This document shows positions 1,520 through 44,287 of a DNA stretch of 64,000 bases, piece by piece (position 1 is the first letter of the stretch; each line of letters starts with the position of its first letter). The position numbers and the translations under genes are program-made. The stretch spans positions 101,398 to 165,397 of the forward strand of contig CAWJJC010000020.1 in NCBI GenBank assembly GCA_963843145.1. The letters are read 5' to 3'. The notes under the pieces were generated by a model that saw nothing but the letters and a program-made list of their open reading frames with translations, had not been told where the DNA came from and searched no databases. Source of the stretch: an uncultured delta proteobacterium. GTDB taxonomy: Bacteria; Desulfobacterota; RBG-13-43-22.

Positions 1520-2659
1520 TCATATAATACCCATCCCCTTCAACACCGAAAGCATGACCGCCGCGGCCATGACCGAACCGACCTGGCCGCCGGCGTTGGC
1601 GCCCATGGCGTGCATCAGCAGGTAATTTCTCTTGTTGTATTTGAATCCTTCTTTTTGGACCACCCGGGCCGACATGGGGAAGGCGGAAATTCCGGCTGCC
1701 CCGATCAAGGGATTCACCTTGCCGCCGGTCAAAATCATCAAGGCCTTTCCAAAAAGGACCCCGCAGGCCGTGTCCAGGCAAATGGCCAACAGACCCAGGG
1801 CCAGGATAATTAAGGTTTGGGACTTGACGAATTCCGGCCCACTCATGGTGGCCCCGATGGAAATACCCAGGAGTAAAGTAACAATATTCGAGATTTCATT
1901 TTCCGAGGCCTTGGTCAACCGGCTGACCGCCCCGGATTCCTTCATCAGGTTCCCCAGCATGATGGTGGCCAAAAGGGGCAAGCCTTTGGGGGCAATAAAG
2001 CCCCCCACTATGGTAATGACGACTGGAAAGAGGATTCGGGTTGTTTTGGAAACGGTCTTTTTATGGGTTTTCATAACAATCTGCCGCTCTTTTTCGGTGG
2101 TCAGCATTCTCATAATCGGCGGCTGAAGCACAGGAACCAGGGACATATAAGAATAGGCCGCCACCGAAACCGCCCCCAGCAAATGAGGGGCATATTGGGA
2201 GGCGACATAAATAACCGTAGGCCCGTCACAGGCTCCGATGATCCCGATGGTCACCGCATCCAGCTTACTGAAACCCAGGGCCAAAGCCAGCAGCAGGGTC
2301 AAAAAAATCCCGCATTGACCGGCGGCCCCCAGGAGAAAAGTATAGGGATTCTCCAAAACGGGTCCGAAATCGGTCATGGCGCCAATACCCACGAAAATAA
2401 GCAAAGGAAATAATTCCGTGATAACGCCGGCATCATAAATAATCCGCAGGAATCCGTCCTTAGCCATCAGATCCGCCAGGGGAATGTTGACGATGATGGC
2501 CCCAAATCCGATGGGCAGCAAAAGTAAGGGTTCAAAATCCTTTTTTATTCCCAAATAAAGGAGAAGACAACCCACGGCGATCATGACCAGGTTAGACCAC
2601 TGGAGATGAACAAACCCGGCTATGAGCCCGGACAATCCACTCAAAATGGCTTCGAGCAT
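1520..2659 (-). CDS. Na+-translocating decarboxylase beta-subunit family membrane protein (OadB/GcdB/MmdB-like)
   Basis: 379-aa polytopic ORF. N-terminus and overall pattern (FEPLLLLPIGFG, GACDGPT, YSYMSLVPVLQPPIMRMLTTEKER) are typical of the OAD_beta family. Confidence 0.85.
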   Translation of the reverse strand: MLEAILSGLSGLIAGFVHLQWSNLVMIAVGCLLLYLGIKKDFEPLLLLPIGFGAIIVNIPLADLMAKDGFLRIIYDAGVITELFPLLIFVGIGAMTDFGPVLENPYTFLLGAAGQCGIFLTLLLALALGFSKLDAVTIGIIGACDGPTVIYVASQYAPHLLGAVSVAAYSYMSLVPVLQPPIMRMLTTEKERQIVMKTHKKTVSKTTRILFPVVITIVGGFIAPKGLPLLATIMLGNLMKESGAVSRLTKASENEISNIVTLLLGISIGATMSGPEFVKSQTLIILALGLLAICLDTACGVLFGKALMILTGGKVNPLIGAAGISAFPMSARVVQKEGFKYNKRNYLLMHAMGANAGGQVGSVMAAAVMLSVLKGMGII

Positions 2660-4011: not shown

Positions 4012-5163
4012 TTATTTGAACATGGCAATGAACATGCCCGCGGCCGCCGCGGTCCCGATGACGCCGGCCAGATTGGGTCCCATGGCATGCATAAGCAGGT
4101 AATTTCTCTTGTTGTATTTCAACCCTTCCACCTGGGAAACCCGGGCCGCCATGGGCACGGCCGAAACCCCGGCCGAGCCGATCAGGGGGTTCATTTTGTT
4201 TTCCGACTTCAGAAACCAGTTGATGATCTGGACCGTCCAGATGCCGCCGGCGGTGCAAAAGGCAAAATCCACTATGCCCAGGCTAAGTATCATCAGGGGT
4301 TTGGGATTCAAAAATTTATCGGCCTGCATGGTGGCCCCCACGGAAAGCCCCAGGAAGATGGTGACGATATTCATCAGCGCCCCCTGAGCGGTCTCGGTCA
4401 ACCGGCCCACCACCCCGCATTCCTTCATCAGGTTGCCGAACATGAACATGCCCATGAGGGGGATGACGGCCGGTATCAGCAGGGCGATGATCGTGGCGGC
4501 GATCAAAGGAAAAAGGATTTTTTCGGTCCGGGAAACTTTGCGCAGGTTTTGCATGACGATCTTCCGCTCTTTTTCGGTAGTCAACAAGCGCATGATGGGG
4601 GGTTGAATCAGAGGAACCAGGGCCATATAAGAATAAGCCGCCAGGGCGTTGGCCCCCAGGAGGTGCGGCGCCAGGGCCTGGGTCAGATAAATGGTGGTCG
4701 GTCCGTCGGCCCCCCCGATGATCCCTATGGACCCGGCTTCCTTGAGGGTGAAGCCCAAAAGCAGGCTTCCGATAAAGGTGAAGAAAACGCCCAACTGGGC
4801 CCCGGCCCCGACCAGCAAGGTTTTGGGGTTGGCAATCAGGGGTTCAAAATCGGTCATGGCCCCCAGGCCCAGGAAGATGACGCAGGGGATCACCTCCCAG
4901 GCAATCCCATAGTGGTAAAAAACCTGGAGCAGCTCCGGGACGCCGTCCTCGGAAAAGCCCATCAAAGGGGTTAGAGGAAAATTGACAATAAAAATGCCGA
5001 AGCCGATGGGAACCAGGAGCAGCGGCTCGAATTTTTTGGCGATGGCCAGGTAGAGAAAGAAAAATCCGATCAGCCACATGACCGGATGACCCCAGGTCAG
5101 GTTCATAAATCCGGTCGTGTGTAGGATCCCGAAAAAAACTTTTAAAAACTCATCATAGCTCAT
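4012..5163 (-). CDS. Na+-translocating decarboxylase beta-subunit family membrane protein (second paralog)
   Basis: 383-aa ORF that aligns by eye along its length with the 1520..2659 product ([43 protein letters not shown]). Confidence 0.85.
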
Positions 5164-18109: not shown

Positions 18110-18148
18110 AGGACAAACCCACTCAGACGGTTCGGTCTGTCCCCCGGA

Positions 18149-18201
18149 CCTCTTCTATTTCCGAGGTCCAGGAGCAGTCGATGCACCCCTTGATGGATTG
18201 A
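18149..18201 (-). repeat. displaced copy of the last ~17 codons of the osmC-like gene (direct repeat with 20749..20801)
   Basis: 53 bp with 2 mismatches against 20749..20801. The minus strand reads ..IQSIKGCIDCSWTSEIEE.. against ..YQSIKGCIDCSWTSEIEEG* in the intact gene. Confidence 0.85.
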
Positions 18202-18482: not shown

Positions 18483-19046
18483 TCACCGGCCGCCGAGTTC
18501 CTCCTCCAACTCCTCGACGACCTCTGCGACGAAATCGTGAAATCCCCAGCCGATGCCTTTGGTCATCTGCTCCACTCTGGCCAACCGGTCCCTGAATTGT
18601 GGATATATGCCCTGCGCCTTGCCACGCAACAGGGCGGCCAGTTCGTCCAGCGCCGACCCCACGCTGTTGTAGAACCGCTCGTCAATGTCCCCATACTTGC
18701 GGGTGAATCTCGTGCCGTTCTCCACATAGGTCATCAGCAGTTCCGCCTTACCGGAAAGGTTGCCCGTGGCTTTGTGGTAATCGTGGATAGCCTTGCGCGC
18801 TTCTCCCAGCTTCAGTTTGCCAAAGCCTCGTGTGGGAAAGAACTGCTCTACGATCTTGCTCCGATATCTTTCCAGGGCCTCGTTGCTGCCCTCTCCGGCC
18901 TGACAGCGGGCCTGGATAAAGTCCCGGTTCTCAGTGCCCGCTTCATAAAGGTCTTTCACCAGCGCGAGCAGCACGGGCTTCTCCCAGGCAGCGAGTTGTT
19001 GGCGGACCGCGCTCCAGCCGCTGGATTTCTTGGTTGCGTTTTTCAT
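18483..19046 (-). CDS. hypothetical all-helical protein
   Basis: 187-aa ORF whose start overlaps the stop of the upstream wHTH gene. I cannot name a family with certainty. Confidence 0.6.
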   Translation of the reverse strand: MKNATKKSSGWSAVRQQLAAWEKPVLLALVKDLYEAGTENRDFIQARCQAGEGSNEALERYRSKIVEQFFPTRGFGKLKLGEARKAIHDYHKATGNLSGKAELLMTYVENGTRFTRKYGDIDERFYNSVGSALDELAALLRGKAQGIYPQFRDRLARVEQMTKGIGWGFHDFVAEVVEELEEELGGR

Positions 19047-19345
19047 GTTTTCAATAGCCTCGGTTGAACGCGTTTCAAGGCGGGCAAAGATTCGGGCGGA
19101 ACGATCAGAGTGATGCTGCGCGCCTTTCCGGGCACGCGCCGAATCAAGCCCCGCCGTTCCAGCGTGAGTACCATCGAATGCACGCTCGGCGGCGTGACCT
19201 GGAAAAACCGTTGCATATCTGCTTCAGCCGGAGCGCAACCGTTCACGAGGCTGTATTGATGGATGTAGGCCAGGAACTGGCCTTGTCGTTCGGTGTAAGT
19301 CGGTTTCATAAAGGTTTGTGGGTGGTCGACATTGACACCATTCAT
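19043..19345 (-). CDS. LexA-N-like winged-helix DNA-binding protein
   Basis: 100-aa ORF with the pattern TERQGQFLAYIHQY...G.AP..ADMQRFF.VTPPSVH.MVLTLERRGLIRR, resembling the LexA DNA-binding domain. No peptidase domain. Confidence 0.6.
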   Translation of the reverse strand: MNGVNVDHPQTFMKPTYTERQGQFLAYIHQYSLVNGCAPAEADMQRFFQVTPPSVHSMVLTLERRGLIRRVPGKARSITLIVPPESLPALKRVQPRLLKT

Positions 19346-19371: not shown

Positions 19372-20388
19372 TTATTCCAGCAGTTTTTTAATGTGACGAT
19401 CAAAGTCGGACTCAAACAGGCGATCCTGCACGATACGGTATTTCTCGAACTCGCTCTCGGCAAAAGCCTTGGCGACTTCCTGGCTGACCTTACCGGGATT
19501 GTCGAGGATGTCCCGTTCGTTGAATTGGAGAAAAACGTTGAGTTTTTTGGCCCAGTCTTCCATGGTCATAGGGATGTTCCGCTCGGCCTGATCCTCGGCG
19601 TAATCGAGATACATCGTCACAAACCGGTCCAGCGACTTCAGTTCCTTCTCGGTGAGGTAATTCTTCGCGATGGAGACATCCGGTTTGATGACCTTCCCGT
19701 GAGGAGCGTTCTTCCAAGTGGTCAACCCCATTTGCTCTTTCTTGCTATCAGCCCGTTCCACGATCAGTTCGGCGGCGGTGCGCCGATGGATGGCGAAATG
19801 GAGCTTGTTCTGTACAGTAGCGAAGAAGGCCTGGGTAGTTTCCGCGCCCGCGCTGTAATCCATCGCCGTGGCATAGATGTCGGTGATCTTCTGGTAGAAC
19901 TTCCGCTCGCTCGCCCTGATTTCGCGGATCTCGGCCAGCAGGTTCTCGAAATACTCCTTGCTGAAGAAGGCGCCGTTCTTCAACCGCTCCTTGTCCAGTA
20001 CGTAGCCGCGGATGGCGTAGTCGCGCAAAATTCCCGTTGCCCACTGACGGAACTGAATGGCGCGGGCTGAGTTCACCCGGAAGCCCACGGCGATGATGGC
20101 GTCGAGGTTGTAAAACCGCGTCGCGTAATCCTTGCCGTCCTCGGCAGTATGTCGGAAATCCCGACATACTGCTTTTTCATCCAGTTCTCCGGTCTCGAAG
20201 ATGTTTTTCAGATGCTCGGTGATCGTGCTGCGGCCCTTGTCGAAGAGCACGCTAATCAGCTTCTGCGTCAGCCAGACGGTTTCCTCCGCCACCCTTACCT
20301 CGATGCCGTCTTCGCCCGCCTGCCGGGTAAATATCAGGAACTCGGCTGTGCTGTTGCGGATCTGGAGTTTGTTTTTTCCCCTTTTCAT
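19372..20388 (-). CDS. RhuM family protein
   Basis: 338-aa ORF. The N-terminal region (IRNSTAEFLIF...VWLTQKLISVLFDK.RSTITEHLKNIF..GEL...VCRDFRHTA.DGK.Y....YNLDAIIAVGFRVNS..A.QFRQWA) matches the RhuM family as I remember it. Confidence 0.8.
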   Translation of the reverse strand: MKRGKNKLQIRNSTAEFLIFTRQAGEDGIEVRVAEETVWLTQKLISVLFDKGRSTITEHLKNIFETGELDEKAVCRDFRHTAEDGKDYATRFYNLDAIIAVGFRVNSARAIQFRQWATGILRDYAIRGYVLDKERLKNGAFFSKEYFENLLAEIREIRASERKFYQKITDIYATAMDYSAGAETTQAFFATVQNKLHFAIHRRTAAELIVERADSKKEQMGLTTWKNAPHGKVIKPDVSIAKNYLTEKELKSLDRFVTMYLDYAEDQAERNIPMTMEDWAKKLNVFLQFNERDILDNPGKVSQEVAKAFAESEFEKYRIVQDRLFESDFDRHIKKLLE

Positions 20389-20730: not shown

Positions 20731-20743
20731 ACTAATCAGTCCG

Positions 20744-21217
20744 CTAGCCCTCTTCTATTTCCGAGGTCCAGGAACAGTCGATACACCCCTTGATGGATTG
20801 ATAGGCCGGGCAGTTCTTTAAATAGACGGCCAAGGCCTTTTCCGCGTCCTCCCGTTTTCCCTTCGGAATTTTCATCTGATACCGGAGCCGGATTTTGGTG
20901 ATCCGCAAGACCCCCTCCACCTCTTCGATGTCCCCCTCCACCTGGGCGATCAGGATGTCTTCGGTCTTTATGCCCCGCACCTCCAGTGCGGCCGCCAGGG
21001 TGCCGGTCAGTCACCCCCCGACGCCGGCGATCATATACTCCAGCGTGGCCGGATATTCGGGACCTTCGAACTTGCGTCCGTACTTGTCCTGGTAAAAATC
21101 CTTGATGCCCCCGTGGATCCCGAAATGAACCGGCTCCGCAAAATCCCCGAAGTGGGCCGTCCGATGGGATCCCCGGTGCTTCTCGATGCGAACGCGACTG
21201 GTGTGGGCGACTGACAT
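20744..21217 (-). CDS. OsmC/Ohr-family peroxiredoxin-like protein with an in-frame TGA (probable selenocysteine) at the catalytic Cys position
   Basis: ORFs 21011..21217 and 20744..20980 share a frame and are separated only by the TGA at 21011..21013. The joined 157-aa product reads ..EYMIAGVGG-U-LTGTLAAALEVRGI.. and retains the second conserved Cys (NCPAY). A hairpin CCGCAC-UGGAG-GUGCGG starts 19 nt after the UGA. Confidence 0.7.
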
Positions 21218-21377
21218 GATCTGACCTCCTTCAATTCTTCTAGAATGGACCTGTGGCCAGAAGACATAACCTCTGGCGGCGAAACCTTAGCGGCATTGTC
21301 GGACCCCTCGTTTCATCTGGGGGTAACACCAGGGTCAGCCAGAGCCCATCGTTTGGGTGATTGGCTGCACCCATTCG

Positions 21378-22355
21378 TTAAGGCCGTTTGACTTCTTCAT
21401 TTGTTACAGCTTCCAATCTCTTAAGATACTTGACCATGCACCAACCGTTCTCATGCAGATTGTTTAGGTAGTTGAAATACTCCACGCAAATCCATTTGCC
21501 TTTTCGATTCACCAGCCGTACCTTCTGATTCGGGTAAAGTATCTTGAGTAAGTTTGATTTCCTTGTGTTCGGCTTGGAGCGCAAACATACCCTCCGTTCA
21601 ACTACGTAGTACGTCTTCTCAAACTCATGAGTTTCCGCATTTGCTACTCGCTCCAGTATTGCTTGTTGCATAGCATGAATTTGCCTCGACAGCCTTTTTT
21701 CGGACTCTTCAGAGGTCTTCAAAGAATACATGAGGATAGAAAGAGCAATCAGGAGATTGAGCCAGAACTCCAAACTCAAAAGAGTCTTAGGCGTTCTCTG
21801 GCCATCCTGTTCAAGTTCTCCGACAAGATGATCGAAGACCTCCCCTACATTGCCACCGGTTTCCGTTTCGACTCTGGCAAATCTTGCCACTGCTTCACGA
21901 AATGACTCCTCAAAGAAATTTGTGGGAATAGTGCCCTGTAGAAGTTGTCTGTACGCAGTGGTCGATGAATGCATCGCTCGTATTGCGTCCTGAATGGCGG
22001 GAGCGCGAGCCAGTGCCTGCATTTCTTGAATAGCTTCCCGAACAGGCCTTAACGGATCTATGGACTGGAAGGCTCTAACATGTTCTCGAAGACCCAGAAG
22101 TGGATCGGGGAGTTGTTGAATGGCCGCTACGGCTTGTTGTACTTCTCTAACCGGGTTGTGCAGTTGGATAAGACGGATGGCCTCGCGGAGTTCCTTGAAT
22201 GGATCGGCCATTTCTATAACCTTCAAGGTCCGCCTTATTTCTTTTAATGGGTCGATTATCTGGAATTGTCTAATTGTGTCATGCATAGCCTTAATGGCAT
22301 CAGCGACTTCACGTGACTGCGAGATTACCGCATCTGAGGTTGCCTTAATTGTCAT
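21378..22355 (-). CDS. hypothetical protein: tandem helical repeats, one TM segment, C-terminal SH3b-like domain
   Basis: 325-aa ORF with five or six degenerate 16-19-aa repeats (DPLKEIRRTLKVIEMA / DPFKELREAIRLIQLH / NPVREVQQAVAAIQQLP / DPLLGLREHVRAFQSI / DPLRPVREAIQEMQAL), a hydrophobic LSLEFWLNLLIALSILMYSL, and a C-terminus LRSKPN...L..LYPNQKV.L....G.W..V. The DNA is visibly AT-richer than its surroundings. Confidence 0.6.
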   Translation of the reverse strand: MTIKATSDAVISQSREVADAIKAMHDTIRQFQIIDPLKEIRRTLKVIEMADPFKELREAIRLIQLHNPVREVQQAVAAIQQLPDPLLGLREHVRAFQSIDPLRPVREAIQEMQALARAPAIQDAIRAMHSSTTAYRQLLQGTIPTNFFEESFREAVARFARVETETGGNVGEVFDHLVGELEQDGQRTPKTLLSLEFWLNLLIALSILMYSLKTSEESEKRLSRQIHAMQQAILERVANAETHEFEKTYYVVERRVCLRSKPNTRKSNLLKILYPNQKVRLVNRKGKWICVEYFNYLNNLHENGWCMVKYLKRLEAVTNEEVKRP

Positions 22356-22485
22356 AGACTCTTTCGGCCAATATTATTTTTTGCGATTTGGGTCGGCCCC
22401 CCCCGTTGACGATATTGCACCATTGCAGCCAACAGGACGATTGTCGGTCGCTCGAACAGAACGTTTTCGGCATGGCCGGTGGTGG

Positions 22486-22917
22486 TCATGAGTTAAACCT
22501 CTGTTTGATGTAATCCTGAGTCTGGCTGGCGCTTAACTCGGTCGTGGATGGCCCTGTGCGAATATAAAAACGTTCCGTATCGCCATCTTTCAGGAATACT
22601 GGCCTGGAGGCCCTCCGACACTTTACTACCATCACGCGGCAGCCGTCGTGATCGTCAAAACGGACATGCATGTTGGTTAAAGCCTGGATCCCCATTCGAG
22701 TTTTAACGATATTCACCAAGTGCAGACCCATTCTATCTTCATTATCAAATTCATCAGCTTGGATACCCACTGGGTTGCCATCATCGGAAACACCTACAAC
22801 CAGCGTGCCGCCGTTGCTGTTCAAAAAACCGGCCAGAGTCTTGAGCACGGCCAACTCCATGCGCGGGTCTTTGCTCCCGGTGTGCAGGTTTGTGCGTAGG
22901 GTGGACTTGAACTCCAC
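22486..22917 (-). CDS. stand-alone AlbA_2 (Schlafen-type) putative nucleic-acid-binding domain protein
   Basis: 143-aa ORF with EFKSTLR........D...E..VLKTLAGFLNSNGGTLVVGV.DDG...G, typical of the AlbA_2 domain. No attached ATPase or HTH module. Confidence 0.7.
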   Translation of the reverse strand: MEFKSTLRTNLHTGSKDPRMELAVLKTLAGFLNSNGGTLVVGVSDDGNPVGIQADEFDNEDRMGLHLVNIVKTRMGIQALTNMHVRFDDHDGCRVMVVKCRRASRPVFLKDGDTERFYIRTGPSTTELSASQTQDYIKQRFNS

Positions 22918-22954
22918 CGCTTCGGATTCCCCATTTATAATTACCTTCGACAGA

Positions 22955-24744
22955 TCATACTCTACCGTGGTCCAAATCTTCCTTGATTCCCCCAGTCATA
23001 AGGGTTGAGTAGCCCTCTCCGATCACCTGTGCCATCAGTTCGCGGCGTTTCTCCAGAAACTCTCGGTAGTCCAGATGTTCCCAGTTTTGCGGCAGAGCGT
23101 GTAACCGATACATCCGCTCAAGTTCCGATTGGTTGAATCGCGCCTTCATTCGGGCAGGTAATCGGTCGGTGCTTGATTAGATATGTCTTTATTATCGCCC
23201 CACTCCACCAGGGCGTAATTGGCGATCTGGTTGGTTTCGCGGGTAGCAGTAATGCCTTGCTTGCTCAGGAAGTCCTTGGGGAAGAGATGATGCCGTTCCA
23301 CAGCGGCGCGATTGGCCTGCATAGAAGGATCCAGTAGGTCTGCTACTTTGATCTTGGAGAATAACGCCCGTGCATCCAGCAGCACCAATGCCGCATGATA
23401 GGCAAACAGCGACGGGCTGCGTGGTGATGAGGTGGCCAGATCATTAGGTAGAGACACCGCCCAGAAATCATTGGTGAGGGTAATGTCGCAGATTTGACTG
23501 AGCGTCTTCAAAAAACCGTCGGTTGTCCTCACGTCACGCAGTCCGGCCAGATCAAACTCCATGGCCGATTCCGGCGAGCCTGTAAAGCGCCCCGTGACCG
23601 CCGACATGAAAAACCAACGGGCAATCACCCGCCGCAGGTCGAACTCGGGCACCTTGTATTCAGTGCGGCCTATCAGATAGAGTATGTAAGAAAACACCAA
23701 ATTGTTCTGCGAGCTGATCATCTTCCCACTGCGGAACCCGGCCTGACGAATGCAGTTCATGAAGTCGTGCCAGTATTGCAGACTCAGCACCCGTTGCTGA
23801 GCATTTTTGAGCAATTCAAATTGCTCCTCTCGGCGCTCGGTGCTGAATTTTTCGGTTTCAAGATCCTTGCCACGCAAAATCGAGTACACATATTTTAATC
23901 GGGCTCGTTTGAATGCCACGCCCACTCCGACCCGCAACAATTGATCGGGCGAAGGCTCGATAAAATGATTGAACGCCGATGCCTGGCCTTTCGATGGTTT
24001 GCGGGATTCACGGCAAAAGCCCTCCAAAGCAGCACGTCCTTCATCCCAAAACACAGACATCAGAGTCAAAATAAAGTCGGCCTGATTCAGCGGAGTACCC
24101 TTGCTGTTGATGCGCACGAACACATCCGACACAGCTTCTTCATCAATATCCGATGCCAGTTCAGAGCAGTGAATGGGAAACCTAAAAGCCCTTGGAGTTT
24201 GCTGATTCGATTTCTTGATTGCTTTGCTCTCTTCCACCGTTACAATACGCGAAGCACTCAGCCCCTCCAGATAGTTTCCACCACCTCAAACAAGTCTGGT
24301 CTTGTCATTCCAAAGCAAGGAAACATCAGAGATAAAAGCTTTGTCACGGCTTATAGCAGCATCAGCCACTTCAAATCTCTCTTCAAGAGGATTGAAGGCA
24401 ATCTGGATATGTTCGCTTTCAAAGTTCTCCCGCAAAACCGCTATATTTTTGATGACGGCATACAACGAAGTCAGGCGTTGCTGTCCATCTACGATCACTA
24501 AACGTGGCGGCTTTTGCTTAATGTCGGTGCCGATGGTCCTGGAGGCGTCAGCCAGCCCGTTTTGCCAAAACAGCAGATAACCCACTGGATAGCCCTTGTA
24601 CATGGAATCAAACAGATCGCGAACCTTGGCGTTCTTCCACACAAAAGGCCGTTGAATATCCGGGAGCCCAATCTCGCCTAGGCCGATAAATTTAACCAAC
24701 GAGCCCAAATCGTAGTCAACTTTGGTAAATACGGTTTCACTCAT
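22955..24744 (-). pseudogene. GmrSD-like DUF262/DUF1524 type IV restriction-type gene, disrupted
   Basis: The N-terminal DUF262 motifs (IQRPFVW, DGQQRLTSL) are in 24286..24744. The middle and the HNH-like DUF1524 part (ERHHLFPK..NYALVEW) are in 23146..24237. These two share a frame but are separated by the TGA at 24286..24288. The C-terminal tail (22955..23149) is in a different frame. Confidence 0.75.
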
Positions 24745-24958
24745 GCTTTGTTATCCTCCTAAGTAACGGCGATTATTTCTCGACATATCCACCTCGACGG
24801 GGTGAACTTAGGACTATTGAGTTCTATTGAGAGGTTAATCCAATACCTCCCAGTGGGTGTAGTTGAGGTATCCCAAAGGAAGGCGATATACTCTCGCTCG
24901 CTGCTGGTCTTGAATGAAAGCGGCTTCTTCTATAGCTCACGCCTCCGCCGAAGCCGCC

Positions 24959-26100
24959 TCATCCTTCCCCCCACACCCGCGCGAGGGTAGCCTGGATCTT
25001 CTTCTTGAAACGGGCGATCAGTTCGCGGTTGGCGGCGACCAGGGCCTGCTCAGCTTCGATCTCGGCGACGATGGTTTGCTGGGTGGCGAGAGGGGGGAGG
25101 GGGATCGGAGCACTTTCGACGATTCCCTGATTGATTTTTAGCATGCTCCCGGCAGCACCGACAGCGTTTCATGTCATATAGGATTTACTGGTGTCGCTTT
25201 GGAGAACATGGAACAGATATTTGCTTAGAATCTTCGATTCGTCCGCTCTTACCCGAATCATCAAGTCGGGATACACGAAGTTAGGTTCTGCCACATCAAA
25301 TATGGCAGCGGTACCGACCAACTCCTTCGTGTTGCCTCGCTGAAGATAGATATCGCCACGTTGACAGCGGCAAGGCGAGTCGAGCGGAATGTCCTCATCG
25401 AGGAATTTATGTTCGGAGATATCCAGTCTGCCCGATGTCGTGGCGCTCAGTAGAGGACTTTGAGATTGGTGGTGTGAGCGACTGGTTACGGAGTGACCAT
25501 TCTCGGTTTGTCCTGAATGACTTCTCCCAACTCCACCATCGGCCAGTCGGGGTGGATGGGGATGTGGGGGCGGTAGTTGTCGAGGACGGCGCGGGCGCCG
25601 TTGATGACTTTCTGGTAGCCCTCGATCTCCGCCACGATCTCCTTCTGCACCTCCAGCGGCGGCAAGGGGATTTGAATTGCTTCTACGCAGATTACTTGGT
25701 GCTACGGATAGGCCAACCTCTGCCATCAGTTCCGATCATCTGAGTCGACCGCCTTTTCGTGCCTCAAGCGATGCAAATAGATAATCCGGGAAGCAGTCGC
25801 TCTCTCTGGTGCGCAGCAGTCGAAACTCGTTGAAGCAACTGCCCTCTCCGGAATTCCATTGCGAATCGTGAATGCCTTAAGGTTAGGACGGACCTCGAGA
25901 TGAGAACATCGTCTTTCGTAACTGACTTCGTGACGGCTTGGTCGCTTCGTCGGTAGGAATTTGTTCCACCGATGGGACTGTCTCCGAGTCGTTCTCACAC
26001 AGGATATGTCAACGAGTTGAAAAAAGCACCGCGGATGTCCAATCTTCTGGCAGGATTCGAATGCTTCGGGCATTGATGGTCGCAAACCTCGCCAAGTCGG
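24959..26100 (-). pseudogene. hsdS: type I R-M specificity subunit gene, multiply frameshifted (boundaries approximate)
   Basis: Recognisable pieces lie in different frames: the central conserved region AIQIPLPPLEVQKEIVAEIEGYQKVINGARAVLDNY (about 25560..25680), a TRD2 piece ..GDIYLQRGNTKELVGTAAIF..PDLMIRVRAD (25169..25400), and the C-terminal conserved region PLPPLATQQTIVAEIEAEQALV (24959..25144). Confidence 0.75.
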
Positions 26101-27525
26101 ACCGTGTGGATATTCTGACGAGCGCGCGCTCGCACTCCCGATACCTCTCCCCACTCAGGTTGTACTCGCCATTCGCTGCGATCTTCTCCTTCTCCACGAT
26201 GAGGCCCAGCGTGGGCTGGAAGTCGTCGACCGATTCCCCTGCCCGCAGGCGGTGCAGGTATTCGCTGATCTCGGCATGGGCCTGCGGTAGGTCGTTCTTC
26301 TCAATCTCGCGCCGCTGGGCGCCGAGGCCGAAGCCGTCGTTTTCGATCTTGAAGAAGGCGATGGTACTTGTCCTTCTTGGCCAGCGACTTGTCGAGGATC
26401 AGGATCGAGGTCTTGACGCCGGAATAGGGCTGGAACACGCCGGCAGGCAGCGAGACTACGGCGACGAGGTACTCCTCCACCAGCATCTTGCGTAGTTGTT
26501 TGTAGGCGGTCTGGCTCTGGAAGATGATCCCCTCAGGCACGATGATGCCGGCTCGGCCGGTAGGGGTGAGATGCTCGGCCATGTAGTCCACGAACAGCAC
26601 TTCGGAGCGCTTGGACTGCACCGAGAAGCGGTTGTGGGGCTTGATGCCGCCCTTCGGCGACATAAAAGGTGGATTGGCGAGGATCACGTCGGCGTATTCA
26701 TTCCACCGGTCCTGACTCGTGAGGGCGTCGTACTCGGCAATGTGTGGGTCGGCGAAACCGTGCAGGTACAGGTTCACCAGGGACAAACGCACCATATCAG
26801 GCGAAATGTCGTAGCCCTTGAAATTCTGCGCGAGGCGTCCCTTTTCGTCTGGCGTCAAATTGATTGCGGATTGAGGATTGCTGATTGTGGATTTGGCAGA
26901 AGTTCCGTGCATGATGATTGGCTCAGAATTGGCTTTCAGGATGTGTTTATACGCCGAGATCAGGAACCCGGCGGTGCCGCAGGCCGGGTCGAGCACGGTC
27001 TCGTTCTTCTTCGGGTCGATTACTTCAACGATGAAATCGATGATGTGGCGCGGGAGTGCGGAACTGCCCGGCGTCGCCCTGGGAGCCGAGCACGGAAAGC
27101 AGATACTCGAAGGCGTCGCCGAGGCGCTCGCTGTGGTCGTATTCGAACTCGTCGATGACCTTGAGGAACATCTTTAGCGTTTCAGGGTCGCGGTAGGGCA
27201 GATAGGCGTTCTTGAAGATGTCGCGGAAAAGGGGCGGTATGCCGGGGTTCTCCGGCATCTTGGCGATGGCCTCGGCGTAGAGATTCAGGGTTTCAAAGCC
27301 GCCCAAGCCGGAGCGCATGAGCTTGGCCCAGCCGTAGCGGGCGAACTTATTGGCGAAAAACTTGCGCTTCCCGCCGAACTCCTCGCTCTCGGCGTCCATG
27401 TCGTCCATGAACTTGTAGATCAGGGCGATGGTGATCTGCTCGACCTGGCTCTTGGGATCGGGCACCTTGCCGACGAGGATGTCGCGGGCGGTGTCGATGC
27501 GGCGTTTGGTGGCGGAGTCTAGCAT
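26100..27525 (-). pseudogene. hsdM: type I R-M methyltransferase subunit gene with at least two frameshifts (3' boundary approximate)
   Basis: The HsdM N-domain is in 27025..27525 and the catalytic part (DPACGTAGFL, NPPF) in 26301..26996. The C-terminal piece (..FFKIENDGFGLGAQRREIEKNDL..EKEKIAANGEYNLSGERY) is in a third frame. Shifts lie near 27045..27055 and 26365..26372. Confidence 0.8.
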
Positions 27526-28789: not shown

Positions 28790-31336
28790 CTATGCCACAA
28801 ACTGGTTCAAGGATACGTAATCTTTGACATATTCAGGAATGATCGTGCGGTACTTGGGCGGCACGGCCTTGAAATCGCGGGTGGAAAAGATTGGATTGGT
28901 GGCCAGGTCGGTGAACTGCTTTTCTTCGATAATGTGGCGCAATTGGCCGCTGGTGACGTAGGCTTTGAAATAGGTCTTGATGGCGGGGATGGCCTCAGCC
29001 TCTTGGGGCTTGGTATCGGCCACGAACTTGGCGAATTCCTCTTCCAGCAGTTCGTCCTTGGACTTGAACCGCGGGATGAGGCCGAAAATCTTCTCCAGGA
29101 TCTCCCGCAGGGCCAGGCGTCGGTCCACGGCGGCAGCTTTGCGCAACTTGTGGAGGGTGTAGTACTCCTCGGGTTTGTCGAAGACCTCGCGGTTTACGTA
29201 GTCGATGACGCGGTCCCACTGCCCGGCCTCGACGGCTTTCGCGATGATCTCGTTCTCGCGCACGGTATCTTCGAATTTCTCGAAGAACATACGGTCGATC
29301 TTCATCCCTTCGAAGCCGATATCAAAAATTTTCATGGAGGCGAGAATATCCTCGCCCAAGTGCTCGTAAGCGCCGCCGTACACCACTGGTCCCCTTCCAC
29401 CGGTGTTTTCGCTCCCTTTGCCCTGGGGCCGGGGAAGCTTCAGCACCTCGTCATAGTTGAACTTCTCCTCGAAGTATTCGCAATTGGCGAAGAAGTCGAA
29501 AAGCTTGAAGGCGGACTTCTGCGGTTGTAAGACGCCCTCTTTGAGGCCGTCGTCGAAAAGCTGTTCGAGAAAGTTGTGCTTGCGGGTGCCGCGTCCCTTG
29601 ATCTGGATGAAGTCCGTCGGCGAGAAAATCGGTCGAAACAGACCGAGATTGAGGATGTCGGTGCAATCGTAGCCGGTGGTCATCATGCCGACAGTCACGC
29701 AGACGCGGGCCTTGCTGGTCCTGTAGGCGGGCAGGAAGTTGGTCGAACCGAGCAGGTTGTTGTTGGCGAAGTTGATGGTGAACTGCTGGGCGTCGGGGAT
29801 CGTTGAGGTGACCTGAACGGCGAAGTCGGACTGGTACCTGCCGGGGAACAGGCGATCGGCCATCTGATTGAAGATCTGTACCAGCTTCGCGGCGTGATTT
29901 TGGCTGACAGTGAAGATGATGGATTTGCCGATCTCTCCGCTGACGGGATCGCGCAGGGCGTTTTCCAGAAAGGTCTTGCAGAAGAGCTGGTTGGTGGCCT
30001 TAGAAAAGAAGCTCTTCTCGAAATCGCTCTTCCGCTTCCTTAAGGTCTCCTGCTGGTCTTCATCCTCTTCGTCAGTGAAGGAGCATATGAAGCCCCGTTC
30101 GGAGAGCAATTGGGTTGTAATTTCAGTGCGGGCATCCACCACCGTGGGGTTGATCAGGTAGCCTTCCTTCACGCCGTCGAGCAGCGAGTAACGATAGGTT
30201 GGCTGGCTGTTCTCGCAGCCGAAGGTCCGGTAGGTGTCCAGCAACAGTCGGCGCTCGGCTTCGCGCGGGTCGCGGGTGGAAGGATTGGTCTTGTCAAACC
30301 GTTTAAGGTAGTCGCGGGGCGTAGCGGTAAGGCCGAGCTTGTAGCCGATGAAGTAGTCGAAGACGGCGCGGGCGTTGCCGCCGATGGAGCGGTGGGCTTC
30401 GTCGGAAATGACCAGGTCGAAATCGGTTGGCGAGAAGAGCCGCTGGTACTTGTTGTTGAAGAGCAGCGACTGCACCGTGGTGACCACTATTTCCGCCCGC
30501 CGCCAGTCGTCACGGTTTTCCTTGTAGATCACCGTCTGAAAGTCAGGGGACAGCAGCGCCTTGAAGGCCTTCCTGGCCTGATCCTCCAGTTCGAGGCGAT
30601 CCACCAGAAACAGCACGCGTCGGGCATTGCCGGATCGGAGGAAGAGTTTGATGACGGCGGCGGCCGTGAGGGTCTTGCCGGTGCCGGTGGCCATCTCGAA
30701 CAGGAAGCGGTCTTTGCCGTCCTTCACGGCCCGCTGCAGGGCGTGAATGGCCTTCAACTGATAGGGCCGCAAGAAACGCAGTTTATTGGTCAGGATGTAG
30801 CCGGAACGCTCCGTCTCATTGCGCCAGGCCGCTTCGGATTGATAGTTCGGACGCTGAGTCAGCACGATGTAGTCTTCGTCGACCGGATCCTCGATTAGGC
30901 GTTGCGGGTTGGGCCTGACCTGCTGGTAGCCGATCACCGAGTCCGGCGTTGGGAAGGACGTAATAAGATAGGGGTTGCCGCGCTCCAGGTCCCAGAAGTA
31001 GTGCAAGTTGCCGTTGGAGAGGATCACGAACCGGCAGTTCTGGGACTTGGCGTATTTGCGGGCCTGCTCCTTGCCGACGAGCGGGTTCCTGTCCTCCGAT
31101 TTGGCCTCTAGGACGATGAGCGGGAAACCTTTGCTGTCGAGCAGCAGGAAGTCGATGAAGCCCTTACTCGTCTTCTCGAAGTTCTCGCCCAGCGCTTCCA
31201 GATCGGCTGACTTGATCGTCACGCTGGGTTCCAGGCGGATGTTAGCGTACGCGCCTCCTTCCGGAAAGAAGCGCCAGCCTGCCGCTTCGAGCAGCCTGTT
31301 GATCTTTATACGGGCAGTGGCTTCTTTATTTGCCAT
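28790..31336 (-). CDS. hsdR: type I restriction endonuclease R subunit (intact)
   Basis: 848-aa ORF with an N-terminal nuclease-type region (RIKINRLLEAAGW..), SF2 helicase motifs (MATGTGKT, DEAH-type ISDEAHRS, QIKGRGTR) and a C-terminal helical domain. Confidence 0.9.
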   Translation of the reverse strand: MANKEATARIKINRLLEAAGWRFFPEGGAYANIRLEPSVTIKSADLEALGENFEKTSKGFIDFLLLDSKGFPLIVLEAKSEDRNPLVGKEQARKYAKSQNCRFVILSNGNLHYFWDLERGNPYLITSFPTPDSVIGYQQVRPNPQRLIEDPVDEDYIVLTQRPNYQSEAAWRNETERSGYILTNKLRFLRPYQLKAIHALQRAVKDGKDRFLFEMATGTGKTLTAAAVIKLFLRSGNARRVLFLVDRLELEDQARKAFKALLSPDFQTVIYKENRDDWRRAEIVVTTVQSLLFNNKYQRLFSPTDFDLVISDEAHRSIGGNARAVFDYFIGYKLGLTATPRDYLKRFDKTNPSTRDPREAERRLLLDTYRTFGCENSQPTYRYSLLDGVKEGYLINPTVVDARTEITTQLLSERGFICSFTDEEDEDQQETLRKRKSDFEKSFFSKATNQLFCKTFLENALRDPVSGEIGKSIIFTVSQNHAAKLVQIFNQMADRLFPGRYQSDFAVQVTSTIPDAQQFTINFANNNLLGSTNFLPAYRTSKARVCVTVGMMTTGYDCTDILNLGLFRPIFSPTDFIQIKGRGTRKHNFLEQLFDDGLKEGVLQPQKSAFKLFDFFANCEYFEEKFNYDEVLKLPRPQGKGSENTGGRGPVVYGGAYEHLGEDILASMKIFDIGFEGMKIDRMFFEKFEDTVRENEIIAKAVEAGQWDRVIDYVNREVFDKPEEYYTLHKLRKAAAVDRRLALREILEKIFGLIPRFKSKDELLEEEFAKFVADTKPQEAEAIPAIKTYFKAYVTSGQLRHIIEEKQFTDLATNPIFSTRDFKAVPPKYRTIIPEYVKDYVSLNQFVA

Positions 31337-40542: not shown

Positions 40543-40570
40543 TTGACATTTTTCTTCAGTCCGCTAACAT
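40543..40570 (+). promoter_or_regulatory. sigma70-like promoter candidate TTGACA-N16-TAACAT
   Basis: Read directly from the sequence, immediately upstream of the cobalamin riboswitch. Confidence 0.45.
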
Positions 40571-40574
40571 TATT

Positions 40575-40745
40575 ATCGGCAATCTGGGGTAGTTCGCTAG
40601 AACTTTAAAAGGGAAGATGGTGTAATTCCATCACGGACCCGCCGCTGTGACCGGGGACGAAAGCCGCAAGAGCCACTGTTCGTTACGGACGGGAAGGCGC
40701 GGCCGGTAGAGAGATCCGGAAGTCAGAAGACCTGCCCAGCAGAAT
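40575..40745 (+). ncRNA. cobalamin (B12) riboswitch
   Basis: Conserved core AAAAGGGAAGATGGTGTAATTCCATCACGGACCCGCCGCTGT, B12-box-like GAGCCACTG, then GGGAAGGCG. P1 candidates CTGGG (40583) and CCCAG (40735). It sits upstream of the cob operon. Confidence 0.85.
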
Positions 40746-40802
40746 CTGGAATTTTACCCTCGCGGATATAGGGTTGCCTTTTGGGAGGATAGAAAACGGT
40801 AT

Positions 40803-40836: not shown

Positions 40837-40903
40837 GTTTTATTTTCTTCGAAAATAAAATCAAGTTTCGCTTCAAGGTTAGCCCGAGCATTTGCTCATT
40901 TTA

Positions 40904-40932
40904 GTCATGCCGGACTCGATCCGGCATCCAGG
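40904..40932. repeat. REP-like hairpin GTCATGCCGGA-CTCGA-TCCGGCATCCAGG
   Basis: 8-bp stem. It is the reverse complement of the 3' part of the 36902..37017 element. Confidence 0.6.
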
Positions 40933-40975
40933 AAACGGGGAAATCAGAACCCTAATAACAAGGAAGCCAGACAAA

Positions 40976-43756: not shown

Positions 43757-44287
43757 ATGAATAATATTCACGGACGTCTGCTCATTTTCACCGGGGACGG
43801 CAAGGGTAAGACTACCGCCGCCCTGGGGATGGCCTTGCGGGCCGTGGGCCACGGGCAGGGGGTTTTGATCCTGCAGTTTATCAAGGCCAATACTTATAGC
43901 GGCGAATTGACGGCCCTGAAAAATCTTCCCGGGATAGAACTCCTTCAAATGGGCCGGGGTTTCCTGGTCCCGCCGGAAGACCCCCGGTTTGACGAACACC
44001 GCCGGGCCGCGGAAGAGGCGCTGAAAAAAGCGGTGGAAATTTTGGAAGCCGGGAGGCATCGGTTGATCATTTTGGATGAGGTCTGCACGGCAGTTAAAAA
44101 AAACCTGCTGACAGAAGAAGAGGTGATGGCGGCGGTCTCCCGGAGAAAGGGAAACGCGGTTTTGGTTCTCACCGGGCGAGGGGCCGGTCCCGGCTTGACG
44201 GCCCTGGCCGACACCGTGACCGAAATGCGCAGTCTCAAGCATGGACTTACCGCCGGCTGGAAGGCCCAGGAAGGGGTTGAATTTTGA
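43757..44287 (+). CDS. cobO: cob(I)yrinic acid a,c-diamide adenosyltransferase
   Basis: Start set at ATG 43757 (MNNIHGRLLIFTGDGKGKTTAALG..). The longer listed ORF start lies inside the repeat element. Confidence 0.9.
   Translation: MNNIHGRLLIFTGDGKGKTTAALGMALRAVGHGQGVLILQFIKANTYSGELTALKNLPGIELLQMGRGFLVPPEDPRFDEHRRAAEEALKKAVEILEAGRHRLIILDEVCTAVKKNLLTEEEVMAAVSRRKGNAVLVLTGRGAGPGLTALADTVTEMRSLKHGLTAGWKAQEGVEF

What the first reader, a model, noticed from the sequence alone, without database searches (positions are those of the whole stretch)
20744..21217. OsmC/Ohr-like gene with an in-frame TGA at the peroxidatic Cys position: probable selenoprotein split into two ORFs
Seen in sequence:
- ORFs 21011..21217 and 20744..20980 (minus strand) are in the same frame. 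They are separated by a single TGA (plus-strand TCA at 21011..21013).
- The junction reads ..ATLEYMIAGVGG-TGA-LTGTLAAALEVRGIKTEDIL..

Established knowledge:
- OsmC/Ohr proteins carry the first catalytic Cys in exactly this small-residue-rich helix N-terminus.
- They carry a second Cys in a C-terminal CP motif, which is present here as NCPAY.

Seen in sequence:
- Nineteen nt after the UGA the mRNA can fold as CCGCAC-UGGAG-GUGCGG: a 6-bp perfect stem and a 5-nt loop with G at positions 2-3.
- That spacing and loop composition are compatible with bacterial SECIS elements.

From memory, OsmC-like proteins have appeared in computational lists of bacterial and metagenomic selenoproteins. The family is therefore not unprecedented, but automated annotation would break it into two fragments.
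Basis: partly seen in the sequence, partly recalled or inferred. Interest (0 to 1): 0.7.

Follow-up and report, generated by a model that had tools for sequence, protein, structure and literature searches.

The report
Selenocysteine-containing OsmC-like redox gene
The two short ORFs are one 157-codon OsmC-family gene whose in-frame TGA encodes selenocysteine at the catalytic-cysteine position; OsmC-like selenoproteins are already known, but this widespread clade is routinely split or mistranslated by gene callers.

Summary
Window 21217..20744 (minus strand) is one 157-codon OsmC-family gene (Pfam PF02566). It is interrupted only by TGA at 21013..21011.

- **Catalytic positions:** the TGA aligns with Cys59 of E. 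coli OsmC, and C136 (NCPAY) aligns with Cys125.
- **Conservation:** all 80 closest orthologs in species-representative genomes carry TGA at this codon. They come from Desulfobacterota, Planctomycetota, Acidobacteriota and Myxococcota.
- **Cys forms:** more distant orthologs, mostly Acidobacteriota, have TGC/TGT.
- **SECIS hairpin:** It is 97.9% paired in 80 sequences and has compensatory AU<->GC and CG<->GC changes, about 17 of them independent. Synonymous sites are frozen (Leu CTG 81/81).
- **Control:** Cys-type orthologs encoding the same peptide lack this constraint. Only 7 of 62 keep all six pairs.

OsmC-like selenoproteins have been listed since 2005. This clade scores far below NCBI's curated OsmC_like_Se model (at most 28 bits against a cutoff of 95). 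Public gene calls split it or read the TGA as Trp.

The parts
20744..21217 (-). Complete coding sequence of the OsmC-like selenoprotein: 157 codons (ATG 21217..21215, Sec-TGA as codon 69, stop TAG 20746..20744).
   Evidence: Translation. The Pfam OsmC domain covers residues 55-149 and spans the TGA. Orthologs are colinear over the full length. The structure model has an OsmC fold.
21225..21230 (-). Shine-Dalgarno-like AGGAGG, 7 nt upstream of the ATG.
   Evidence: Read directly from the sequence.
21011..21013 (-). In-frame TGA = selenocysteine codon (residue U69), at the position of the peroxidatic Cys of OsmC.
   Evidence: Aligns with Cys59 of E. coli OsmC and the equivalent Cys of T. thermophilus OsmC. 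TGA is present at this codon in 80/80 closest genome loci. More distant orthologs have TGC/TGT.
20975..20991 (-). SECIS-like hairpin: 5' arm 20991..20986 (CCGCAC), loop 20985..20981 (UGGAG), 3' arm 20980..20975 (GUGCGG). 25 nt lie between the UGA and the loop.
   Evidence: RNAalifold consensus. 97.9% of cells are paired, with compensatory changes at pairs 23-39 and 27-35. At least 17 independent switches. Synonymous-site suppression. The constraint is absent from Cys-type orthologs. Meets the published bSECIS criteria. Hairpin energy -11 kcal/mol.
20810..20812 (-). Codon of Cys136 (NCPAY), the presumed resolving cysteine.
   Evidence: Aligns with Cys125 of E. coli OsmC. C136 is invariant in alignment A1. 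61 of 63 C-terminal fragments and 50 of 52 aligned Cys-type proteins have Cys here.
20774..20785 (-). C-terminal Cys145-x-x-Cys148 (GCIDCSW), an extra cysteine pair enriched in TGA-type members.
   Evidence: C145 is present in 40/68 TGA-type proteins against 4/52 Cys-type proteins. CxxC is present in 61 of 82 TGA-type genome loci. Its function is inferred only.

Best explanation
Window 21217..20744 (minus strand) is a single gene for a 157-residue OsmC-family thiol/selenol oxidoreductase. Codon 69 (UGA) is recoded to selenocysteine.

Proposed recoding mechanism: while the ribosome reads the mRNA, a 6-bp hairpin with the loop UGGAN, starting 19 nt after the UGA, is bound by the Sec-specific elongation factor SelB. 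SelB delivers Sec-tRNA(Sec) to the UGA in place of release factor 2.

Proposed catalytic mechanism: Sec69 sits where OsmC has its peroxidatic cysteine and would attack a hydroperoxide, forming a selenenic acid. Cys136 (the CP motif) would resolve this to a selenenylsulfide. The selenenylsulfide is then reduced, possibly through the clade-specific C-terminal Cys145-x-x-Cys148 pair.

Shown here:
- the gene is one OsmC-family reading frame;
- the TGA is at the catalytic-Cys position;
- the TGA is conserved;
- the hairpin is under RNA-level selection only in TGA-type genes.

Inferred, not shown:
- SelB binding and Se insertion;
- peroxidase chemistry (about 0.6 confidence);
- a role for the CxxC pair (speculative).
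For: 1. One gene of the OsmC family. The Pfam domain spans the TGA. The AlphaFold model has pLDDT 85.5 and pTM 0.81, and all top Foldseek PDB hits are OsmC/Ohr at probability 1.00.
2. U69 aligns with Cys59 and C136 with Cys125 of E. coli OsmC.
3. TGA sits at this exact codon in 80/80 closest loci from species-representative genomes of several phyla. It is also present in 16 more distant Armatimonadota-type loci.
4. Both halves are under coding selection. Codon positions 1-2 are conserved and wobble entropy is 1.4-2.0 bits, both upstream and downstream of the TGA.
5. Cys orthologs exist. Of 177 sampled proteins, 63 have Cys and 94 bear a TGA signature: 63 C-terminal fragments, 25 N-terminal fragments and 6 with 'W'.
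6. The JGI 'W' is TGA in the DNA.
7. Hairpin statistics: 97.9% of cells paired against 14-67% for slid controls; AU 39 against GC 37 at pair 27-35; CG 51 against GC 16 and GU 5 at pair 23-39; 0/500 shuffles reach the observed covariation score. RNAalifold gives the same structure. At least 17 independent switches on an NJ tree.
8. Synonymous freezing in the hairpin: Leu+9 is CTG in 81/81 and Val+11 is GTG in 41/42.
9. Negative control: 62 Cys-type genes encoding the same G-A-L-E-A-R-G peptide use Leu CTC/CTG/TTA and all four Ala codons. Only 7/62 keep six pairs, against 72/80 TGA-type genes.
10. The hairpin fits the published bSECIS rules for loop length, stem length, G in the first two loop positions, 16-37 nt spacing and MFE.
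11. TGA is an ordinary stop elsewhere in the window: 24 of 61 ORFs end in TGA, including full-length OAD_beta and Pirin.
12. The closest relatives are labelled delta proteobacteria, which a 2026 review names among the lineages richest in selenoproteins.
Against: - No tRNA-Sec, selA, selB or selD lies in the 64-kb window. The source genome could not be retrieved, so the machinery is unverified for this organism.
- Single-sequence folding of the 45-nt context is not better than shuffles.
- No Rfam family matches.
- The published motif for OsmC-like selenoproteins is UxxT; here the sequence is U-L-T-G-T.
- The curated NF041052 model scores only 22.6 bits.
- Peroxidase activity is not shown. A catalytic Arg equivalent is only approximately aligned (R48/K49 against R39 of E. 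coli OsmC) and is not invariant in the family.
Confidence: 0.92

Rival explanations
1. The TGA is a true stop. The locus is a nonsense-mutated pseudogene, or two independent small ORFs, and no full-length protein is made.
For: Gene callers produce exactly this picture: 68-aa and 78-88-aa fragments. The window has another gene cut by a single in-frame TGA (GmrSD-like), so nonsense mutations do occur here. No Sec machinery is seen in the window.
Against: The same TGA is at the same codon in 80/80 orthologs across phyla, with purifying selection on both sides. A downstream hairpin is under RNA-level selection with compensatory changes, and that selection vanishes in Cys-type orthologs. The C-terminal half has no conserved start of its own; callers use the Leu codon or later GTG/ATG codons.
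Confidence: 0.02
2. The UGA is read through without selenium in this organism, for example as Trp, Cys or Gly through code reassignment or near-cognate suppression, or it is a sequencing error for TGC/TGG.
For: JGI calls for four orthologs print W at this position. The Sec machinery is unverified for the source genome.
Against: The W comes from the caller applying a TGA=Trp table to short contigs; the DNA is TGA. TGA ends 24 of 61 ORFs in the window, including full-length Pfam-covered genes, so it is a normal stop here. The carriers belong to many phyla with the standard code. An error would not recur in 96 independent assemblies. The position is the redox-active Cys, and the hairpin matches SECIS rules.
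Confidence: 0.04
3. It is a genuine selenoprotein but not a peroxidase. The OsmC fold serves another thiol/selenol redox or sulfur/selenium-transfer role, as proposed for uncharacterised YhfA-like OsmC relatives.
For: All curated peroxiredoxin subfamily models score far below cutoff: TIGR03562 26.7 against 85.8, TIGR03563 21.6 against 166. JGI mostly labels the orthologs 'uncharacterized OsmC-like protein'. There is a clade-specific His-rich N-terminal third and an extra C-terminal CxxC. No peroxide-stress gene is a conserved neighbour.
Against: Both catalytic Cys positions of OsmC are kept. The best sequence and structure matches are bona fide OsmC/Ohr hydroperoxide reductases. An acidic residue (D/E60) aligns with the PEEL glutamate region of OsmC.
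Confidence: 0.3

Closest known systems
'OsmC-like protein' selenoprotein family (Zhang, Fomenko & Gladyshev 2005, Sargasso Sea, PMC1088965; GOS 2008, PMC2398784; Olavius symbionts 2007, PMC1976440; 2026 review, PMC13188914)
   Same: An OsmC-fold protein (pfam02566) with Sec replacing the first redox Cys, a bacterial SECIS hairpin just downstream of the UGA, and Cys-containing homologs. It was also found in deltaproteobacterial data.
   Different: The published motif is UxxT; here it is U-L-T-G-T (Thr at +2 and +4). The published counts were tiny (3 and 5 Sec sequences). This clade has at least 80 species-level genomes, all with TGA, out of 484 relatives detected. I could not obtain the published sequences, so identity of the clades is untested.
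NCBIfam NF041052 OsmC_like_Se, 'OsmC-related (seleno)protein'
   Same: A curated model for Sec/Cys OsmC relatives. The match covers the same region, residues 54-149 against profile positions 38-137 of 144.
   Different: The score is 22.6 bits for the window protein and at most 28 bits for nine other clade members, against a cutoff of 95. The clade therefore lies outside the model. NCBI-sourced relatives appear only as 86-90-aa 'OsmC family protein' fragments.
E. coli OsmC (PDB 1qwi, 1nye) and T. thermophilus OsmC (1ukk), two-Cys organic hydroperoxide reductases
   Same: Same fold (Foldseek probability 1.00, about 155 aligned columns). U69 aligns with Cys59 and C136 with Cys125. The CP motif is kept.
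   Different: About 18% identity. Sec replaces Cys. The N-terminal third is about 10 residues longer and His-rich. There is an extra C-terminal CxxC. The catalytic Arg is not clearly conserved.
Bacterial SECIS consensus (bSECISearch model as summarised in PMC13188914; the E. coli fdhF SECIS is the characterised example)
   Same: A small apical loop (5 nt) with G at loop position 2 followed by G, a 6-bp GC-rich upper stem, 25 nt between the UGA and the loop, and a hairpin energy of -11 kcal/mol. All are within the published ranges.
   Different: No conserved lower stem or bulged U was detected. The whole element is embedded in the strongly conserved peptide A-L-[DE]-[VA]-R, so the loop UGGA is also fixed by the Leu-Asp/Glu codons.

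Membership tests
Bacterial selenoprotein gene (Sec-UGA plus bSECIS) | In-frame UGA aligned with a conserved Cys of homologs (Sec/Cys pair) | tested here: met
   U69 aligns with the Cys of OsmC structures and with TGC/TGT in 64 Cys-type loci and 63 Cys-type proteins.
Bacterial selenoprotein gene (Sec-UGA plus bSECIS) | Protein-coding conservation on both sides of the UGA, in the same frame, across species | tested here: met
   80/80 loci have TGA with colinear conserved flanks. Codon-position entropy shows purifying selection both upstream and downstream.
Bacterial selenoprotein gene (Sec-UGA plus bSECIS) | bSECIS: 3-9 nt loop, 4-16 bp upper stem, G in the first two loop positions, 16-37 nt from UGA to loop, MFE <= -7.5 kcal/mol (PMC13188914) | tested here: met
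   Loop UGGAG (5 nt, G at positions 2-3), 6 bp, 25 nt spacing, -11 kcal/mol. Covariation is shown. The constraint is absent from Cys-type genes.
Bacterial selenoprotein gene (Sec-UGA plus bSECIS) | selA, selB, selC (tRNA-Sec) and selD in the same genome | not testable with these tools
   None lies in the 64-kb window or in the fetched flanks. The window's proteins are not on record, so the rest of the genome is unreachable.
Bacterial selenoprotein gene (Sec-UGA plus bSECIS) | Selenium demonstrated in the polypeptide | not testable with these tools
   Needs 75Se labelling or mass spectrometry.
OsmC/Ohr superfamily (Pfam PF02566) | Domain score above the Pfam gathering threshold | tested here: met
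   54.8 bits against 27.5, residues 55-149.
OsmC/Ohr superfamily (Pfam PF02566) | OsmC fold | tested here: met
   AlphaFold model of ortholog P0002: pLDDT 85.5, pTM 0.81. The top 50 Foldseek PDB hits are all OsmC/Ohr-type proteins; TM is about 0.5 because the crystal chains are domain-swapped dimers.
OsmC/Ohr superfamily (Pfam PF02566) | Two conserved redox cysteines (E. coli OsmC Cys59 and Cys125) | tested here: met
   U69 and C136 align with them. C136-P137 is invariant in A1.
OsmC/Ohr superfamily (Pfam PF02566) | Catalytic Arg/Glu partners and hydroperoxide reductase activity | tested here: inconclusive
   D/E60 aligns with the PEEL region. The Arg is offset by one residue and is not invariant. 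Activity is not testable here.
NCBIfam NF041052 OsmC_like_Se | Whole-protein score of at least 95 bits | tested here: not met
   22.6 bits for the window protein. Of nine other clade members scanned, the best scored 28 bits.
NCBIfam TIGR03562 OsmC and TIGR03563 peroxiredoxin subfamilies | Score above the curated cutoff (85.8 and 166.15 bits) | tested here: not met
   26.7 and 21.6 bits.
Published 'OsmC-like protein' selenoprotein family (2005/2008) | pfam02566/COG1765 membership with Sec in a UxxT motif | tested here: inconclusive
   The Pfam criterion is met, and JGI labels most orthologs 'uncharacterized OsmC-like protein'. The motif here is ULTGT, not UxxT.

The most novel reading that the evidence does not exclude
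This is a distinct, so far uncurated clade of OsmC-fold selenoproteins. It is separate from the UxxT / NF041052 group.

- In the clade closest to the window gene, found in Desulfobacterota, Planctomycetota, Acidobacteriota (Vicinamibacteria) and Myxococcota, every member sampled has Sec.
- A more distant branch (Armatimonadota) carries the same SECIS hairpin.
- The Sec forms have co-acquired a C-terminal Cys145-x-x-Cys148 pair. This pair may act as an internal relay that reduces the Sec69-Cys136 selenenylsulfide. No such three-centre redox mechanism has been described for OsmC/Ohr enzymes.
Probability: 0.3. Interest if true: 0.45.

Novelty: new member of a known kind. Interest (0 to 1): 0.3.

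Why it matters
**Annotation.** A gene present in hundreds of species-level genomes is systematically reported as two 'hypothetical/OsmC family' fragments, or with a spurious Trp. The 80 closest all carry TGA. NCBI's curated selenoprotein model for OsmC relatives does not reach this clade.

**Biology.** The finding adds a well-supported Sec/Cys family pair, with a compact and strongly covarying SECIS. That makes it a clean natural data set for studying SECIS constraints inside coding sequence: about 17 independent compensatory switches, with a matched Cys-type control.

**Limits.** The kind of element, an OsmC-like selenoprotein, has been known since 2005, so this is not a surprise to specialists.

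Tried and rejected
- **Rfam.** A scan at gathering threshold over the whole window and at E<=10 over the locus found nothing for the hairpin.
- **Single-sequence folding.** Folding the 45-nt context gave an alternative fold with a non-significant z-score. I therefore relied on comparative evidence.
- **Sigma-70 promoter and intrinsic terminator scan.** Nothing was found around the gene.
- **tRNA-Sec and sel genes.** No tRNA-Sec was found in the window or in the 86 loci fetched by then. Pfam scans of 30 window ORFs found no SelA, SelB or SelD.
- **Locating the source contig.** Exact-protein look-ups with the N-terminal fragment and with the RhuM neighbour were both not on record.
- **First Cys-type profile.** It was too divergent for the locus search; a narrower one worked.
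- **Conserved neighbours.** A search across the 80 closest loci (L007-L086) found none. The largest apparent clusters were spurious antisense or off-frame ORFs over the gene itself.
- **Other selenoprotein candidates in the window.** A scan for ORF pairs split by one TGA turned up only the GmrSD-like gene. It has no redox context and no significant hairpin.
- **Genome-level search for sel genes in relatives.** I considered it and dropped it. The locus finder returns only the 80 best hits collection-wide and cannot be restricted to one assembly.

Full report
**1. Observation**

On the minus strand, ATG 21217 opens a frame that runs to TAG 20744 and is interrupted only by TGA at 21013..21011. 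The translation is MSVAHTSRVRIEKHRGSHRTAHFGDFAEPVHFGIHGGIKDFYQDKYGRKFEGPEYPATLEYMIAGVGG*LTGTLAAALEVRGIK...NCPAYQSIKGCIDCSWTSEIEEG*. An AGGAGG lies 7 nt before the ATG. Nineteen nt after the UGA lies CCGCAC-UGGAG-GUGCGG, exactly as described.

**2. One gene of the OsmC family**

- With Cys substituted for the stop, the 157-residue product matches Pfam OsmC (PF02566) at 54.8 bits against a cutoff of 27.5. The match covers residues 55-149, so the domain spans the TGA.
- Against PDB sequences the best matches are OsmC of Thermus thermophilus (1ukk) and of E. coli (1qwi, 1nye).
- Counting along the printed 1qwi alignment, residue 69 falls on Cys59 and Cys136 (NCPAY) on Cys125. From my own knowledge of the OsmC literature, these are the peroxidatic and resolving cysteines.
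- An AlphaFold2 model of ortholog P0002 has mean pLDDT 85.5 and pTM 0.81.
- All top Foldseek PDB matches are OsmC/Ohr proteins, aligned over about 155 columns at probability 1.00. TM is about 0.5, as expected when a monomer model is compared with domain-swapped dimers.

**3. The TGA is conserved, not accidental**

- A homolog search returned four full-length 157-184-aa JGI proteins with 'W' at the position. It also returned one Cys form (P0008, 42% identical), many 86-93-aa fragments beginning right after the position (MTGTL...), and N-terminal fragments ending ...AGVAG.
- The DNA behind the 'W' protein P0001 has TGA there. The 'W' is therefore an artefact of the gene caller.
- Two NCBI MAG contigs carry adjacent 68-aa and 88-90-aa calls that are one frame with a TGA.
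- In all 80 best loci the codon is TGA. The single locus my regular expression missed, L031, also has TGA.
- By record title, the carriers are 'delta proteobacterium'/Desulfobacterales/Desulfobacteraceae MAGs, Planctomycetota (Pirellulaceae, Gemmataceae and the cultured Tautonia sp. JC769), Acidobacteriota/Vicinamibacteria and Myxococcota.
- The closest ortholog is 92% identical, from MAG MFD05942.bin.2.34, labelled 'uncultured delta proteobacterium'.
- Codon-position entropies show normal coding selection on both sides of the TGA: positions 1-2 are conserved and wobble positions carry 1.4-2.0 bits.

**4. Sec/Cys pairs**

A profile search of 1.84 billion cluster representatives gave 853 hits at E<=1e-3. 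Among the 177 sequences in hand:

| Category | Count |
|---|---|
| Full-length with Cys at the position | 63 |
| 'W' at the position | 6 |
| C-terminal fragments starting just after it | 63 |
| N-terminal fragments ending just before it | 25 |

A second genome scan with a Cys-type profile returned 64 TGC/TGT loci, mostly Acidobacteriota. It also returned 16 further TGA loci from Armatimonadota-type MAGs.

**5. The hairpin is a SECIS element by every test available here**

*Structure and covariation*
- 97.9% of cells are paired, against 14-67% when the partner column is slid.
- Pair 27-35 is A-U in 39 sequences and G-C in 37.
- Pair 23-39 is C-G in 51, G-C in 16 and G-U in 5.
- None of 500 shuffles reaches the observed covariation score.
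- On a neighbour-joining tree of the proteins, each column of pair 27-35 changes at least 17-18 times, and only 4 of 79 sequences are in an intermediate state. The covariation is therefore not one inherited event.
- In pair 27-35, column 27 is the wobble base of Ala+8 and column 35 is the second base of the Val/Ala codon at +11. No protein-level reason links them.

*Frozen synonymous sites*
- Leu+9 is CTG in 81/81 sequences.
- Val+11 is GTG in 41/42.
- The wobble base of codon +7 is almost always C.

*Control with Cys-type genes*
- The 62 distinct Cys-type genes encode the same G-A-L-E-A-R-G peptide.
- They use CTC, CTG or TTA for that Leu and all four Ala codons.
- Only 7/62 keep all six pairs, against 72/80 of the TGA-type genes.

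*Fit to the published criteria*

| Criterion (2026 review) | Allowed | Here |
|---|---|---|
| Apical loop length | 3-9 nt | 5 nt (UGGAN) |
| Upper stem length | 4-16 bp | 6 bp |
| G in the first two loop positions | required | G at positions 2-3 |
| Spacing from UGA to loop | 16-37 nt | 25 nt |
| Minimum free energy | <= -7.5 kcal/mol | -11 kcal/mol |

*Weak points*
- The 45-nt context folded alone prefers another structure and is not better than shuffles.
- Rfam has no matching family.

**6. Rivals**

- *Pseudogene or two separate ORFs.* This is excluded in practice by the conservation of the TGA, the selection on both halves and the SECIS covariation.
- *Code reassignment or sequencing error.* TGA terminates 24 of 61 window ORFs, including full-length OAD_beta and Pirin genes. 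The same codon recurs in 96 independent assemblies.
- *Read-through without selenium in this particular organism.* This cannot be formally excluded. The Sec machinery is not in the window, and the source genome could not be located.
- *Lineage.* The review names Thermodesulfobacteriota (formerly Deltaproteobacteria) among the lineages richest in selenoproteins.

**7. Function**

The gene has no conserved neighbour across the 80 closest loci, so it is a stand-alone gene.

The most likely chemistry is OsmC-type hydroperoxide reduction:
- Sec69 acts as the peroxidatic residue.
- Cys136 acts as the resolving residue.

This is inferred from the aligned catalytic positions and the fold. It is not shown, and the curated peroxiredoxin subfamily models score far below cutoff.

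One clade-specific feature stands out. An extra Cys145, usually part of Cys145-x-x-Cys148, is present in 40/68 TGA-type proteins but only 4/52 Cys-type proteins. The CxxC pair is present in 61 of 82 TGA-type genome loci. I suggest, speculatively, that it is an internal reductant for the selenenylsulfide.

**8. Comparison with what is known**

- 'OsmC-like protein' has been a listed selenoprotein family since the 2005 Sargasso Sea study (3 sequences, COG1765, motif UxxT).
- It reappears in the 2008 GOS study (5 Sec against 161 Cys sequences), in the 2007 Olavius symbiont study and in a 2026 review.
- NCBI curates NF041052, 'OsmC-related (seleno)protein'.
- The window protein scores 22.6 bits on that model, and nine other clade members at most 28, against a cutoff of 95.
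- The motif here is U-L-T-G-T rather than UxxT.
- NCBI-sourced relatives appear only as fragments.

I therefore file the gene as a member of the OsmC superfamily and of the known kind 'OsmC-like selenoprotein', but outside the curated NF041052 family. Whether it is the same clade as the 2005 sequences could not be tested.

**9. Surroundings**

The gene sits between variable islands.
- Upstream, relative to orthologous loci L007 and L008, about 3.7 kb has been inserted. It carries a 325-aa ORF, a Schlafen/AlbA_2 gene and a GmrSD-like gene.
- Downstream, a 66-nt copy of the gene's own 3' end (89% identical) recurs 2,600 nt away. The two copies bracket RhuM, a LexA-like HTH gene and a 187-aa ORF. 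This looks like an element that integrated into the 3' end of the gene and supplied a replacement end.

**10. Verdict**

- Novelty: a new member of a known kind.
- Interest is modest (0.3). The value lies in correcting a widespread annotation error and in a very clean SECIS covariation data set.

Noticed in passing
window 18136-18201 and 20736-20801: A 66-nt direct repeat (89% identical, spacing 2600). One copy is the 3' end of the selenoprotein gene. The other is a remnant that reads ...SIKGCIDCSWTSEIEEV, ending like the orthologs' C-termini. The copies bracket RhuM (19372-20388), a LexA-like HTH gene (19043-19345) and a 187-aa ORF (18483-19046). This looks like an element integrated into the gene's 3' end that brought a replacement end; no integrase was seen inside it.
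   Followed up: partly
window 21232-24966: About 3.7 kb has been inserted upstream of the gene relative to orthologous loci L007 and L008. It holds a 325-aa ORF with no Pfam hit (21378-22355), a Schlafen/AlbA_2 gene (22486-22917) and a GmrSD-like gene, so it looks like a defence island. In L008 the HTH + 187-aa block lies upstream of the gene instead of downstream.
   Followed up: partly
window 23146-24744 (minus strand), TGA at 24286-24288: A GmrSD/DUF262-like gene is interrupted by one in-frame TGA. Joined, it gives a single GmrSD_N match over residues 21-226 (104 bits) spanning the stop. There is no redox motif and no significant downstream hairpin (z -0.54). It is probably a nonsense-mutated pseudogene, not a second selenoprotein. 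Homologs were not examined.
   Followed up: partly
P0001-P0004, P0031, P0108 (public gene calls); L001 529-531: Public metagenome gene calls for orthologs print Trp at the Sec position. P0001 was checked: its DNA codon is TGA. This suggests a TGA=Trp translation table was applied to short contigs. Such calls hide selenoproteins as apparently normal full-length proteins.
   Followed up: yes
L149-L165 (Armatimonadota, 'Candidatus Fervidifonticultor' and unclassified MAGs): A more distant branch of the same OsmC subfamily (44-48% identical to the Cys form P0008) also has TGA at the catalytic position. It carries the same hairpin, GCGCGC-UGGAR-GCGCGC (GCGCGU in two loci). Sec use therefore spans several branches interleaved with Cys-type Acidobacteriota genes.
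   Followed up: partly
window 40570-40753 (+): A cobalamin riboswitch (Rfam RF00174, 118 bits) lies upstream of an anaerobic-type cobalamin biosynthesis and cobalt-uptake cluster. The cluster includes a CobQ/aminotransferase fusion (40892-43558), CbiA (44284-45675), CbiM (46981-47886) and CbiD (50065-51144).
   Followed up: no
window 1520-2659 and 4012-5163 (minus strand): Two paralogous Na+-transporting oxaloacetate decarboxylase beta-subunit genes (OAD_beta, 492 and 508 bits) lie within 4 kb, next to a DUF362/4Fe-4S protein (260-1378). This is consistent with an anaerobic lifestyle.
   Followed up: no
window 28790-31336 (minus strand) and 26301-27525: A type I restriction R subunit (ResIII + HSDR_N) is present. 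The ORFs next to it that look like HsdM appear to be split into several pieces. Only the R subunit was checked against Pfam.
   Followed up: no
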